Source: the human T2T-CHM13v2.0 reference genome, Homo sapiens
NCBI RefSeq assembly: GCF_009914755.1
Contig: NC_060926.1
Strand: one strand, 5' to 3'
DNA: 64,000 bases
Part shown: positions 39,375-42,400 of the stretch, piece after piece
How positions within the stretch are numbered: position 1 is the stretch's first letter
How the letters are laid out: every line of letters begins with the position of its first letter
The notes under the pieces: model-generated
Seen by the model: only the letters and a program-made list of their open reading frames with translations
Databases searched by the model: none
Told to the model about the DNA's origin: nothing
Program-made: the position numbers and the translations under genes

Positions 39375-39409
39375 CTATTTTTTCTTGGGTATGGAGGTTT
39401 CTTGAAGAC
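39375..39409 (-). CDS. RGPD2: RGPD1/2 terminal coding exon ([11 protein letters not shown])
   Basis: ctatgttctag|GT CTT CAA GAA ACC TCC ATA CCC AAG AAA AAA TAG; phase 1 matches the GRIP exon; matches recalled RGPD1/2 C-terminus. Confidence 0.8.
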
Positions 39410-42400
39410 CTAGAACATAGAAGAATGCCTAGTTAAAAAAAAAAATCAATGAAACTACGAGTTTTAGGCCAAATCTGAGAAAAGACCAAAGATGACTATG
39501 TTTGGGACTGAAGTAAACATATCAAGTTAGAACTCTCATCACATGTTTGACTCAAATTGTGGAGCAAAATAGTAAATAAAATATAAAAATGAAAATGAAG
39601 ATACGTGAAATTCAAATGTCACAACTTGCCTATTATTTATTTTAGTGCATTTTTTTGTGCTTTTCCCAGTTTGGTGTTAGGTGGCCTTAAGTTCTCAGTA
39701 ATGACACTTATCAAATAGGAACTTAGTGTTACTCACCTTTATCCATTCCCCCAACACTCAACAAATTGCCTTTGCTATATCCCTATGAGATGAGCAGATC
39801 AAATATTCCCCGTGAGTTAATGAAAACTGATTCAACCAAATGGCGAAGTCAGAGACTATCGGGGGCCATGGAGACACTCTGGGCCATTTTTATGAGGTAG
39901 TCTAGGCTCATCTTCATGAGGGAACTGAGGTCTTGGGGGGTGGGGGTTACCCAAATAGGTTCACAGAAGAACCAGAAATAAAACCTGCCTTTCTAGACTG
40001 TAAGTCTTGTGATTGTCATCTAAATGGTTGTCTCTATACAGCAACTCATCTCTAGAACTGAAAATAAGTTTAAATCCCTCCTCCATCCCCAATAATTCAA
40101 GCTGCATTTCAGAGAAAACCAGGACTTTGGAATCAGACAGATCAACTTTGAATTCTTGATCTGCTTCTTCATAGCTATTTATGCTTAGGCAAGTTTTGTT
40201 TTGTTTTGTTTTACGTTGCCACTCAGTCTTCTCATCTGTAAAACAGGGATAATAACACCTTCCTCAAATGGTTTTTTTTATTAGGACTAAAAGAGAGAAT
40301 GTGTGGAAAGATGTTAGTGGAATTCCTGGCACATAGTTCACATGGACAAAATGGTGTTAACTACGAAAATTTTTACAGAGAAAAGGGCAACTGACAAAAG
40401 CAGGTGTTTGGAATGAATTAAGACCATGGCAGGCTTTTGAGGCCTTTATATTTCTCCTGACTGTGCAATAAAAATATTTTGGCTCTCTGTCTAAGACTTG
40501 GCTGTCACAGTAGCAATGGTAATATTAGCTACTGTGCCAGAAGCAGCCTATCAATAGAGAAATTGAAAATCTGACCACACAAATGCTGCAGCACCCAGCT
40601 GAAATGCATTTGGATGACAATCTCAGATGGGAATCGAGAGCATCTCCTTCTGCCTTGCTAATAGCAAGCTGATTTTTAGAATATAGTCTAAGTGCTTCTC
40701 TTCCATCCTCCCCAGATTCTCACCTGCTACACACCCCTCAGAGGGACTGGAGGAATCCAGACAACGATGCGCAGGGGCCCTGGTGCTATACTACTGATCC
40801 AGAACAGAGATATGACTACTGCGACATTCCTGAGTGTGAAGGGCAGGAGTGGCTCTAGAAAATGTTTTCATTTCTGCCCTTCACCTGTAAAATAATTTGT
40901 TGTAAAGCCCCTTCCCACAGGGATATTATTAATAATTGCGTAACGTGTTCACCTCTCGGAAAGGAGCAAAACTTTGCTCAGATCCCAGAATTAACCTGAT
41001 TTTTTTTTTTTTTTCTGAGACAGAATTTTGCTCTCATTGCCCAGGCTAGAGTGCAATGGTGCGATCTCAGCTCACCACAACCTCCGCCTCTGGGTTCAAG
41101 CGATTCTCCTACCTCAGCCTCCCAAGTAGCTGGAATTACATGCATGTGCCACCATGCCTGGCTAATTTTACATTTTTAGTAGAGACAGGGTTTCTCCATG
41201 TTGGTCAGGCTGGTCTTGAACTCTCGACCTCAGGTGAGCCGCCCGCCTCAGCCTCCCAAAGTGCTGGGATTACAGGCATGAGCCACCATGCCCAGCAGAC
41301 CTGAATTATTATTATTAAAATGTTACATCAACATGTACAAATATAAAACTACATCTAAACTCTAAGTACAGACTTCTTATGCTTAAAACTCTTACACAGT
41401 GTTAACCCCAAGACAGATTTGCAATTAAGTAGTTAAAATAAGACAACAAAGTCAATAAAAATCAAATAAACAATATACATTTAATGTGGTAGACTTTGCT
41501 GTTTTGCTGAAGCTAAGCAAGGAACCAGTTTTTAAATCAGCAATCCGTTATTTTAATGGACTGAGCAATTTAATAGTGCACCTCAAAGGTCAATGATAAA
41601 AACTAAAAAAAAAAAATACCTACTGAAAAAACTGTCATCGTTTCACATTTCTGGCTACGTTAGTGCAAAAGGGAATAAATAAAGGTGAGATTTGTGTGAC
41701 AGTGTGGATATGGTACTGTGTGACAACTCAGTTCTCCCATCACTTCCACCTGTTTGAATCATCGGGATCCTTTATTTGTACACCATGTTATCGGTATTTG
41801 CCCTTAAGCACCACCAATGCACCACTTTTATATTAAGTCTGCCCGTTTTCCTTAGTACTCCATAAAATTTAAGTCACATATTACTCTGCCTCACCATGTT
41901 ACTTCAATAATTCTGAATCAAAGTTTAAGTTTGTGAATAATTTTGCAAAAAAAGAGCCAATCATGCTTCTCAACAACATAAAAAGAGAAGCGCCGTCACT
42001 TCAGGTGAATATTGTTCTCCGTGAGGCCATGAGCATAAACAAAAACTCCAGACTAAAACCCTGAGACGGTGCCAGGTCATTCAGCAGTCAGCGGAATGAT
42101 CAGTATAATTTCAAACAAAGTTTTAAAGATCATTATTGAAATGATGTATTTTGAGCTTCCTGGATCTGTTCCTTTATGTCTACCTTAGTTCATTTGGGCT
42201 GCTGTGACAAAAATATCATAAACTGGAGAGTTTATAAACAACAGAAATTTATTTCTCACCGTTCTAGGGGCTGTGATGTCCAAGACCAAGGCACTAGCAG
42301 TGTCTGGTGAGGCCCTGCTTCCTCATAGATGACACATTCTGGCTTTGTCCTCACATGGTGTCAGGGGCTAGCTAATTCCCTGGGGCTTCTTTCATAAGTG

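What the first reader, a model, noticed from the sequence alone, without database searches (positions are those of the whole stretch)
39375..39412. RGPD terminal exon exonised antisense from plasminogen intron 4
Seen: the GCC2 last exon (EEENASRSSGW...) was not found in the window. The phase-1 GRIP donor at 54152 can splice 14.7 kb away to a TAG acceptor between PLG exons 4 and 5, giving [11 protein letters not shown]. The RGPD copy is thus a three-way chimera (RANBP2 + GCC2 + antisense PLG intron) with a new basic C-terminus made from non-coding DNA.
Basis: partly seen in the sequence, partly recalled or inferred. Interest (0 to 1): 0.75.

Follow-up and report, generated by a model that had tools for sequence, protein, structure and literature searches.

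The report
RGPD2 last exon from antisense plasminogen intron
The last ten amino acids of the ape-specific protein RGPD2 are read from the reverse strand of a copied plasminogen intron, because the original final exon inherited from GCC2 was deleted; the gene model is already annotated, but this origin seems not to be in print.

Summary
Donor CAAG|gtgggt (last exon base 54153) and acceptor ttctatgttctag|GTC (first exon base 39409) join in phase 1. They give ...[17 protein letters not shown], as in RefSeq NM_001078170.3.

The window is a three-way mosaic:
- RANBP2-derived from 60724 upward.
- GCC2-derived at 42145-60726.
- PLG-derived up to 42144, in the opposite orientation.

The 35 coding bases lie between PLG exon 4 (38803-38917) and exon 5 (about 40715-40850), antisense.

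The GCC2 last exon is absent because a deletion of about 6.2 kb, between two inverted Alus at 47284-47289, removed it. RGPD1 shares this deletion.

The acceptor, reading frame, stop and ATTAAA poly(A) signal all pre-exist in PLG on chr6. Juxtaposition, not mutation, made the exon.

The same tail ends a human RGPD3-type protein and a gorilla isoform, and both of those copies keep the GCC2 exon. So the deletion made the exon obligatory rather than possible.

The other RGPD copies truncate the conserved GCC2 tail by two independent stop codons.

By sequence alone the acceptor is unremarkable (55 of 1176 AGs score as well). Support comes from the annotation and database proteins. The function of the tail is unknown. 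This is a known gene model with an apparently undescribed origin, of moderate interest.

The parts
39375..39409 (-). Coding part of the RGPD2 terminal exon. It holds GT (completing a Gly codon), ten codons ([10 protein letters not shown]) and a TAG stop at 39375-39377. It is antisense to PLG-derived intron 4.
   Evidence: Read. The frame follows from the donor. It matches the hub's RefSeq CDS. The same tail occurs in database proteins P0002-P0004 and P0036.
39410..39450 (-). 3' splice signals: the TAG acceptor (39410-39412), the pyrimidine tract ttcttctatgttc, a run of 11 T, and a TTAAC that fits the branch-point consensus. The branch point is my inference. An AG about 20 nt upstream is probably too near it to be used.
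   Evidence: The same signals are present in PLG on chr6, where the T run is 8.
37943..39374 (-). 3' UTR of the terminal exon (1,432 nt). It runs antisense through a dispersed repeat (about 38940-39280), PLG exon 4 (38803-38917) and the end of PLG intron 3. It overlaps PLGLB2 exon 4 by 607 nt (38803-39409), tail to tail.
   Evidence: Exon limits come from the hub table. The repeat is seen (39 of 43 matches cover only query 241-581). PLG exon 4 is shown.
37957..37962 (-). ATTAAA poly(A) hexamer, 14 nt before the annotated 3' end at 37943.
   Evidence: It is identical in the RGPD1, RGPD3 and chr6 PLG copies.
54153..54348 (-). GCC2-derived penultimate exon. It encodes the whole Pfam GRIP domain and ends in a phase-1 donor, CAAG|gtgggt.
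   Evidence: Pfam GRIP PF01465 matches at 3.7e-17 over positions 1-44 of 44. There are eight copies on chr2.
47284..47289 (.). Scar of the deletion of about 6.2 kb that removed the GCC2-derived terminal exon. The junction reads ...CCTGGAAAACAG-CCCAG-CCCAGCCCATGCC... and lies between two oppositely oriented Alu elements.
   Evidence: In one search the alignment to the other six copies jumps from about 7.5 kb to about 13.7 kb. RGPD1 is colinear with the window across the scar.
42144..42145 (.). Junction of PLG-derived DNA (29121 or lower, up to 42144, + orientation) with GCC2 3'-flank-derived DNA (42145 upward, - orientation). A few bases are ambiguous.
   Evidence: The junction is shared by the copies at chr2 87.00, 106.87 and 108.34 Mb.
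60724..60726 (.). Junction of RANBP2-derived DNA (upward) with GCC2-derived DNA (downward).
   Evidence: In one search, query positions 1-3277 match chr2:109229101-109232345 and positions 3275-7001 match chr2:108953975-108957709.
50866..54152 (-). Alternative 3' end listed by RefSeq (exon 50866-54348). Read-through of the donor would give ...AAVAQGG*.
   Evidence: Hub table. The codons GGT GGG TAA are read.

Best explanation
RGPD2 is a fusion gene built from three duplicated pieces of DNA lying end to end. They are RANBP2, the 3' part of GCC2 with about 12 kb of its downstream flank, and, in the opposite orientation, the 5' part of plasminogen (annotated as PLGLB2).

**How the exon came into use**
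- GCC2's own last exon encodes GEEENASRSSGWASYLHSWSGLR*. In the RGPD2 lineage it was removed by a deletion of about 6.2 kb between two inverted Alus. This happened before RGPD1 was copied from RGPD2.
- Transcription therefore runs on across the GCC2/PLG junction.
- The GRIP exon is spliced 14.7 kb away to a ready-made terminal-exon unit on the reverse strand of the plasminogen fragment. The unit has a branch-point-like TTAAC, a T-rich tract, a TAG acceptor, a ten-codon frame with a stop, and an ATTAAA poly(A) signal 1.4 kb further on.
- Every one of these signals is already present in PLG on chr6. The exon was made by juxtaposition, not by new mutations.
- It was already in use in copies that keep the GCC2 exon (RGPD3-type, and a gorilla isoform). 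The deletion made it the only spliced option.

**What is shown and what is inferred**
- Shown: the homologies, junctions, deletion, pre-existing signals, and proteins with this tail.
- Inferred: the main functional effect is loss of the conserved, Trp-containing GCC2 tail, which is thought to touch the Golgi membrane. On this reading the ten new residues mostly just supply a stop and a 3' end.
For: **Splice sites and frame:**

**PLG colinearity:** window 29121-42144 matches chr6:162049000-162062135 at 95.3% in one alignment of 13,196 columns. Kringle halves lie on either side of the exon.

**GCC2 colinearity and the deletion:**
- The window is colinear with all 7 other copies downstream of the GRIP exon.
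- 6 of the 7, including the GCC2 locus at 108.96 Mb, hold an extra 6.2 kb.
- The seventh, RGPD1, matches the window in one 18,174-column alignment at 99.35%.
- The GCC2 terminal exon sits inside that extra segment.
- The breakpoints lie in inverted Alus.
- The exon is absent from the window.

**Pre-existing signals:**
- The acceptor, ORF and stop are conserved in chr6 PLG, with 1 substitution in 35 nt.
- ATTAAA is identical in all 4 copies.

**Proteins:** of the 120 listed proteins, 6 end in GLQETSI[P/R]KKK.
- Four are human-type sequences: three that sources label Homo sapiens and one unnamed. The named ones include an nr entry called 'RAN-binding protein 2-like 1 short isoform' and RGPD2 isoform 2.
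- One of the four (P0036) has a GRIP exon equal to the genomic translation of the 106.87 Mb copy (RGPD3).
- Two are gorilla isoform X1, whose isoform X2 ends in GEE.

**Conservation of the lost tail:** 75 of the 120 end in W[AT]SYLHSWSG[LI]R, from birds to primates.

**Literature:** a review states that the GCC185 C-terminus or a GRIP tryptophan may insert in the membrane (PMC4791371, passages).
Against: - No transcript data could be examined here, so the share of RGPD2 mRNAs that use this junction is unknown.
- RefSeq also lists a read-through 3' end at 50866.
- By a crude sequence score, 49 candidate acceptors nearer the donor look as good. Why this one is chosen is not explained.
- One gorilla copy has Arg for Pro in the tail, and PLG on chr6 would give Ser. 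Ten codons give no power to test for constraint.
- RGPD1 and RGPD2 are reported as the constrained, LOF-free paralogs (PMC13639854, passages). This could mean the new tail matters more than I assume.
- Ciccarelli et al. 2005, the founding paper, could not be read. It may already describe the 3' end.
Confidence: 0.85

Rival explanations
1. The new polybasic tail (…SIPKKK) was recruited for a function of its own. For example, it might give electrostatic binding to acidic membranes in place of the lost Trp tail. Under this reading it is kept by selection in RGPD1, RGPD2 and RGPD3.
For: - The tail is identical in three human paralogs, and gorilla differs by one residue.
- It is used in RGPD3-type and gorilla models even though a nearer terminal exon (GEE*) is present.
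- RGPD1 and RGPD2 are the copy-number-stable paralogs without nonsense variants (PMC13639854, passages).
Against: - Identity among copies that are 98-99% alike says nothing about constraint.
- The same frame and stop exist in the PLG intron, where they cannot be coding.
- No known motif fits. The Lys residues are at -1 to -3, not in the -3/-4 or -3/-5 pattern of di-lysine signals. That pattern is recalled from memory, not tested with a tool.
Confidence: 0.2
2. The annotated junction is a minor form. Most RGPD2 transcripts end by read-through and polyadenylation inside the intron (exon 50866-54348), giving ...AAVAQGG*.
For: RefSeq lists such an exon among the other transcripts (hub table). The read-through frame stops after two codons. 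The 14.7 kb intron contains many plausible decoy acceptors.
Against: The selected RefSeq transcript uses 39409. Independent database entries from human and gorilla carry the spliced tail. None of the 120 listed proteins ends in AQGG.
Confidence: 0.12
3. The terminal exon is not of plasminogen origin. Either it belongs to GCC2 or RANBP2 flanking DNA, or it is a transposable-element exon of the Alu-exonisation type.
For: A dispersed repeat lies within the same exon's 3' UTR at about 38940-39280.
Against: - The 1,001-nt query around the exon has only 4 full-length matches in the genome. All 4 are PLG-type loci: chr6 at 97%, and three on chr2.
- GCC2 homology stops at 42145.
- The repeat does not reach the coding part.
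Confidence: 0.01

Closest known systems
GCC2 (GCC185) terminal exon, and its remnants in RGPD3/4 and RGPD5/6/8
   Same: It has the same upstream GRIP exon and the same phase-1 donor. The first codon is again Gly, split G|GT. It plays the same role as the last coding exon with its poly(A) site.
   Different: - GCC2 encodes GEEENASRSSGWASYLHSWSGLR, conserved in 75 of 120 listed proteins.
- The copies at 106.87 and 108.34 Mb stop after GEE, by GAA>TAA.
- The copies at 110.31, 110.94 and 112.80 Mb stop after DEEEN.SRSSG, by TGG>TGA at the Trp codon.
- RGPD1 and RGPD2 have no such exon and take unrelated sequence.
Chimeric genes formed at junctions of primate segmental duplications (RGPD itself as RANBP2+GCC2; USP6 from TBC1D3+USP32, recalled from memory)
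   Same: Duplicated fragments of unrelated genes were juxtaposed and spliced into one transcript, in an ape-specific core-duplicon family (10.1101/2023.03.07.531415, passages).
   Different: The third partner contributes no coding sequence of its own. It is read on the wrong strand, from an intron, so the added residues are new rather than borrowed.
Exonisation of intronic or repeat sequence (Alu exonisation, recalled from memory)
   Same: A latent splice acceptor with a pyrimidine tract in non-coding DNA becomes an exon.
   Different: - The coding part is unique sequence, not a transposable element.
- It is a terminal exon with its own poly(A) signal.
- No activating mutation is evident, apart from a T run of 11-13 against 8 in PLG.
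- The trigger was a change of neighbourhood.
PLGLB2 / PLGLB1 / PLGLA (plasminogen-like genes)
   Same: They are the same DNA: the RGPD2 exon overlaps PLGLB2 exon 4 by 607 nt.
   Different: They lie on the opposite strand. PLGLB2 is annotated to code only from PLG exons 1-3. The Kringle exon 5 in the window carries a 14-bp deletion.

Membership tests
RGPD family (RANBP2-GCC2 fusion genes) | 5' part derived from RANBP2, joined to GCC2-derived DNA | tested here: met
   The junction is at window 60724-60726. Upstream DNA matches chr2:109.229 Mb and downstream DNA matches chr2:108.954 Mb. Related proteins carry Ran_BP1 (PF00638) plus GRIP.
RGPD family (RANBP2-GCC2 fusion genes) | C-terminal GRIP domain encoded by a GCC2-derived exon | tested here: met
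   PF01465 matches at 3.7e-17 and 62.3 bits (cut-off 24.4), over positions 1-44 of 44. The exon is 97-100% identical to seven other chr2 copies.
Functional GRIP domain (Arl1-binding, Golgi-targeting) | Invariant tyrosine (Y2177 of golgin-245), essential for Arl1 binding and Golgi targeting of golgin-245 and golgin-97 (PMC4791371 and PMC4047078, passages) | tested here: not met
   The window reads NVEHLKN. His replaces Tyr in the copies at 87.00, 87.78, 106.87 and 108.34 Mb. GCC2 and the copies at 110.31, 110.94 and 112.80 Mb keep NLEYLKN. [quoted passage not shown]
Functional GRIP domain (Arl1-binding, Golgi-targeting) | C-terminal tail with a conserved tryptophan, proposed to insert in the membrane | tested here: not met
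   The tail is replaced by [10 protein letters not shown].
Exonised antisense intron sequence (new coding sequence from non-coding DNA) | The coding bases are homologous to a non-coding part of the parent gene and lie on the opposite strand | tested here: met
   The window is colinear with chr6 PLG between Kringle-1 exons 4 and 5. The RGPD2 exon is on the minus strand and PLG on the plus strand.
Exonised antisense intron sequence (new coding sequence from non-coding DNA) | Evidence that the exon is spliced into mature mRNA and translated | tested here: inconclusive
   A RefSeq selected transcript (hub table) and 6 of 120 database proteins carry the tail, at least one of them named like a cDNA product. 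No RNA-seq, Iso-Seq or peptide data could be examined.
Transposable-element exonisation | The exon's coding part and acceptor lie within a dispersed repeat | tested here: not met
   Only 4 loci in the genome match across 39375-39412. The repeat matches stop at about window 39280.

The most novel reading that the evidence does not exclude
The conserved membrane-facing tail of GCC2 has been removed from every human RGPD lineage by three separate lesions:
- a stop at the Trp codon in RGPD5/6/8;
- a stop at the fourth codon in RGPD3/4;
- a deletion of about 6.2 kb in RGPD1/2.

In the RGPD1-4 clade the GRIP tyrosine is also lost. An orangutan RANBP2-GRIP fusion still has both the tail and the tyrosine.

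This pattern would mean selection to uncouple RGPD proteins from Golgi anchoring, or from interference with GCC2. The only constrained paralogs (RGPD1 and RGPD2) would then have fixed a new polybasic end, drafted whole from a latent antisense exon in a plasminogen intron.
Probability: 0.25. Interest if true: 0.6.

Novelty: new member of a known kind. Interest (0 to 1): 0.42.

Why it matters
RGPD is one of the core-duplicon gene families of ape chromosome 2. [quoted passage not shown]

**What this case shows**
- Base by base, a segmental-duplication junction gave a protein a new end without any creating mutation. A complete but silent terminal exon on the reverse strand of another gene's intron became coding once a transcribed gene was placed next to it, and obligatory once the original exon was deleted.
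- RGPD1-3 proteins should not be assumed to behave like GCC2 at the Golgi. The tail is replaced and the key tyrosine is His.

**Practical use**
- The peptide [15 protein letters not shown] marks RGPD1, RGPD2 and RGPD3 as against the other paralogs.
- The 607-nt convergent overlap with PLGLB2 matters for assigning reads.

Tried and rejected
- **Ciccarelli et al. 2005.** I tried to read it by DOI and by PMC551560. It is not held. Whether it describes the 3' exon stays open.
- **Literature searches.** Four searches linked RGPD with plasminogen, PLGLB, exonisation, Nup358 or GRIP.
  - Where plasminogen or PLGLB terms co-occurred with RGPD, the titles and abstract starts pointed to gene-list or expression papers. 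I opened only one of those (PMC12882164).
  - Term searches found no 'plasminogen' or 'PLGL' in the main text of 10.1101/2023.03.07.531415.
  - PMC12882164 held one PLGLB mention, as an enhancer target, and no 'terminal exon', 'last exon' or 'C-terminal'.
  - In PMC13639854 I searched only for RGPD, GCC2 and 'GRIP domain'.
  - Supplements of the preprints are closed and may hold transcript models.
- **Acceptor score.** A crude pyrimidine-tract score did not single out the acceptor. No proper splice-site model was on hand.
- **TE-derived exon.** Considered and rejected. The repeat is confined to the UTR.
- **Deletion as prerequisite.** I considered that the deletion was needed before the exon could be used. 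I rejected this because the RGPD3-type and gorilla X1 proteins carry the tail while their loci or isoforms keep the GEE* exon.
- **Not attempted.** Structure prediction and complex prediction, because ten residues give nothing to fold.
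Full report
**1. The observation**

On the minus strand the GRIP-domain exon ends ...GCT GCG GTT GCT CAA G|gtgggtaaaa. Its last exon base is 54153, and it translates to ...[11 protein letters not shown].

At 39409 an exon begins after ...tttttttttttaactaggcattcttctatgttctag| with GT CTT CAA GAA ACC TCC ATA CCC AAG AAA AAA TAG. The join is in phase 1 and gives Gly, then [10 protein letters not shown], then a stop at 39375-39377. The intron is 39410-54152 (14,743 nt). This is exactly the coding part that the hub's RefSeq table gives for NM_001078170.3.

An ATTAAA hexamer lies at 37962-37957, 14 nt before the annotated end at 37943.

Sequence alone would not have picked this acceptor. 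Of 1176 AG dinucleotides in the span, 55 have a pyrimidine at -3 and as many pyrimidines at -23..-4, and 49 of them lie nearer the donor. The junction rests on annotation and on database proteins, not on statistics.

**2. What the DNA is**

The window's own genome could be searched. The window turns out to be a mosaic of three sources.

*PLG-derived, up to 42144*
- Window 29121-42144 aligns in one piece (13,196 columns, 95.3%) with chr6:162049000-162062135. The lower end is cut by my fetch.
- ORF 38679-38957 holds ...[31 protein letters not shown]... It matches Pfam Kringle positions 1-32 and plasminogen 4a5t residues 74-122.
- ORF 40673-40858 matches Kringle positions 52-79.
- These are PLG exon 4 (38803-38917) and exon 5 (about 40715-40850). 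The 35 coding bases of RGPD2 lie between them, on the other strand.

*GCC2-derived, 42145 to about 60726*
- The GRIP exon has eight copies on chr2.
- Downstream of it the window is colinear with all seven others as far as 42141-42145.

*RANBP2-derived, from 60724 upward*
- Upstream, window 64000-60724 matches chr2:109.229 Mb, and 60726-57000 matches chr2:108.954 Mb.
- The copy at 108.96 Mb is thus the parent GCC2. It lacks the RANBP2 part, and its flank runs on as native sequence.
- The locus at 109.23 Mb is RANBP2. That name and the gene order are recalled from memory. The proteins carry Ran_BP1 domains and RANBP2-like names.

**3. Why the GCC2 last exon is missing**

At the GCC2 locus the exon ...ttttactttccaaag|GT GAG GAA GAA AAT GCT ... 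CGA TAG lies about 7.8 kb after the GRIP exon. It encodes GEEENASRSSGWASYLHSWSGLR*.

It sits in a segment of 6,178 bp that is present in GCC2 and in the copies at 106.87, 108.34, 110.31, 110.94 and 112.80 Mb. The segment is absent from the window and from the 87.00 Mb copy (RGPD1). RGPD1 is colinear with the window over 18,174 columns at 99.35%.

The breakpoints lie in two Alu elements of opposite orientation. The scar reads AAAACAG-CCCAG-CCCAGCCCATG at 47284-47289.

A probe for the exon finds nothing in the 64 kb but a 46-nt T-rich match. The 6.2 kb segment matches the window only through dispersed repeats. Because the parent gene has the segment, this is a deletion in the RGPD2 lineage, and it predates the RGPD1 copy.

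**4. The exon was ready-made**

The four PLG-type loci are the window, PLGLB1/RGPD1, the 106.85 Mb copy and PLG on chr6. They are nearly identical around the exon.
- The TAG acceptor, the pyrimidine tract, the frame and the stop are all present in PLG itself.
- There is one substitution in the 35 nt (CCC against TCC) and a shorter T run, 8 against 11-13.
- The ATTAAA hexamer is identical in all four.
- The whole 1,467-nt exon is 96.7% identical to chr6.

No creating mutation is needed. What changed is that a transcribed gene now runs into this DNA from the far side.

**5. Which copies use it**

| Copy or copies | PLG fragment | Terminal coding sequence |
|---|---|---|
| 87.00 and 87.78 Mb (RGPD1, RGPD2) | present | [13 protein letters not shown]2 exon deleted |
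| 106.87 Mb (RGPD3) | present | keeps the GCC2 exon with GAA>TAA (GEE*); the matching protein P0036 ends [11 protein letters not shown] |
| 108.34 Mb (RGPD4) | kept only as far as window 40667, so the antisense exon is lost | GEE* |
| 110.31, 110.94, 112.80 Mb (RGPD5/6/8) | none; they run on into native GCC2 flank | DEEEN.SRSSG*, by TGG>TGA at the Trp codon |

- The GCC2/PLG junction is shared by the copies at 87.00, 87.78, 106.87 and 108.34 Mb.
- The stop-codon changes in the GCC2-derived exon are read.
- The RGPD names given to the loci follow from matching GRIP exons and from recalled gene order. They come from no annotation that I saw.

A search of the large protein collection listed 120 proteins.
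- 75 end in W[AT]SYLHSWSG[LI]R. These are GCC2 from birds to primates, plus an orangutan RANBP2-like protein, P0034.
- 22 end in DEEEN..SG.
- 6 end in GEE.
- 6 end in GLQETSI[P/R]KKK.
- 11 end otherwise.

The GLQETSI group holds four human-type entries, three of them labelled Homo sapiens by their sources and one unnamed.
- One is an nr record named 'RAN-binding protein 2-like 1 short isoform' and one is RGPD2 isoform 2.
- One (P0036) has a GRIP exon equal to the genomic translation of the 106.87 Mb copy.
- The other two are gorilla isoform X1 (...SIRKKK). Its sister isoform X2 ends in GEE.

So the antisense exon is used in copies that still have the nearer GCC2-derived exon. The deletion in RGPD1/2 made it obligatory, not possible.

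**6. How it most likely works**

*Shown:* the structure, the junctions, the deletion, the pre-existing signals, and proteins with the tail.

*Inferred, at the RNA level:*
- Polymerase reads through the remaining GCC2 flank into antisense PLG.
- The TTAAC about 26 nt before the acceptor serves as the branch point.
- The AG just after it is too close to be used.
- The exon is defined by the acceptor together with ATTAAA.

*Inferred, at the protein level:*
- The Pfam GRIP domain lies wholly in the previous exon, so the fold is not cut.
- What is lost is the conserved tail. A review says that the GCC185 C-terminus, or a GRIP tryptophan, may insert in the membrane (PMC4791371, passages).
[quoted passage not shown] It is His in RGPD1-4 and Tyr in GCC2 and RGPD5/6/8.
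- My best reading is that the effect that counts is loss of the GCC2 tail, and that the ten new residues are mainly a by-product.
- The rival reading, that the polybasic end has a role of its own, cannot be excluded. RGPD1 and RGPD2 are reported as the copy-stable paralogs without nonsense variants (PMC13639854, passages). RGPD2 is reported as the one copy orthologous among African apes, with RGPD1 a recent human copy of it (10.1101/2023.03.07.531415, passages).

**7. Comparison with what is known, and novelty**

- The gene model and the protein end are in RefSeq, so the exon is not new.
- RGPD is known as a RANBP2+GCC2 fusion.
- In four library searches the hits that co-mention RGPD with plasminogen or PLGLB looked from their listings like gene-list or expression papers.
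- Term searches in two of the RGPD papers found nothing on a plasminogen-derived 3' exon. The third, PMC13639854, was searched only for RGPD, GCC2 and 'GRIP domain'.
- I therefore found no statement that the 3' exon of RGPD1-3 comes from antisense plasminogen, or that the GCC2 tail was lost three times.
- Ciccarelli et al. 2005 is not held, and preprint supplements are closed. Either might contain such a statement.
- In kind, this is a further case of gene innovation at a segmental-duplication junction and of exonisation of non-coding DNA. It is unusual in that a whole latent terminal exon was taken over unchanged.

**8. Verdict**

- Observation: confirmed.
- Interpretation: supported and extended.
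- Interest: moderate. It is a clean and well-resolved example in a much-studied family, but it adds only ten residues of unknown function to an annotated model.

Noticed in passing
window 54268-54270 (codon CAC in ...GTGGAACACTTGAAG...), minus strand: The invariant GRIP-domain tyrosine is histidine (NVEHLKN) in the copies at 87.00, 87.78, 106.87 and 108.34 Mb. GCC2 and the copies at 110.31, 110.94 and 112.80 Mb keep NLEYLKN. Some Pan proteins combine His with the DEEEN-type tail, which suggests gene conversion.
   Followed up: partly
window about 54295, within the GRIP exon: The window and RGPD1 share a 6-bp in-frame deletion (QEQEE/QEREK becomes QEE). It is absent from the six other copies and is a handy paralog-specific marker.
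   Followed up: partly
GCC2-derived terminal exon at chr2 106.87/108.34 and 110.31/110.94/112.80 Mb (loci L023, L025, L029, L032, L034): Two independent nonsense changes truncate the conserved GCC2 tail. GAA>TAA gives GEE*. TGG>TGA at the Trp codon gives DEEEN.SRSSG*, and this group also has G>D at the split codon. An orangutan RANBP2-like protein (P0034) keeps the full tail.
   Followed up: partly
window about 40755, + strand (PLG exon 5 equivalent): A 14-bp deletion relative to chr6 PLG (GAACTACTGCAGGA) shifts the Kringle-1 frame in the PLGLB2 copy.
   Followed up: yes
L024/L038 (chr2:108.36 Mb copy): Here the PLG fragment is cut at the equivalent of window 40667. About 1.4 kb further on there is an inverted piece matching window 26564-27637 at 94.5%. 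This is a later rearrangement that removed the antisense exon from this copy.
   Followed up: partly
window 49372-49388: A second difference of about 630-640 bp: non-repeat-looking sequence present in GCC2 and five RGPD copies is absent from the window and RGPD1.
   Followed up: no
window 38940-39280: A dispersed repeat of about 320 bp lies inside PLG intron 4 and forms part of the RGPD2 3' UTR. 39 of 43 genome matches, at 70-81% identity, cover only this part. From memory it looks like a MaLR-type LTR. This was not tested.
   Followed up: no
window 38803-39409, both strands: The 3' exons of RGPD2 (-) and PLGLB2 (+) overlap convergently by 607 nt (hub table). Possible sense-antisense pairing and read mis-assignment were not examined.
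   Followed up: no
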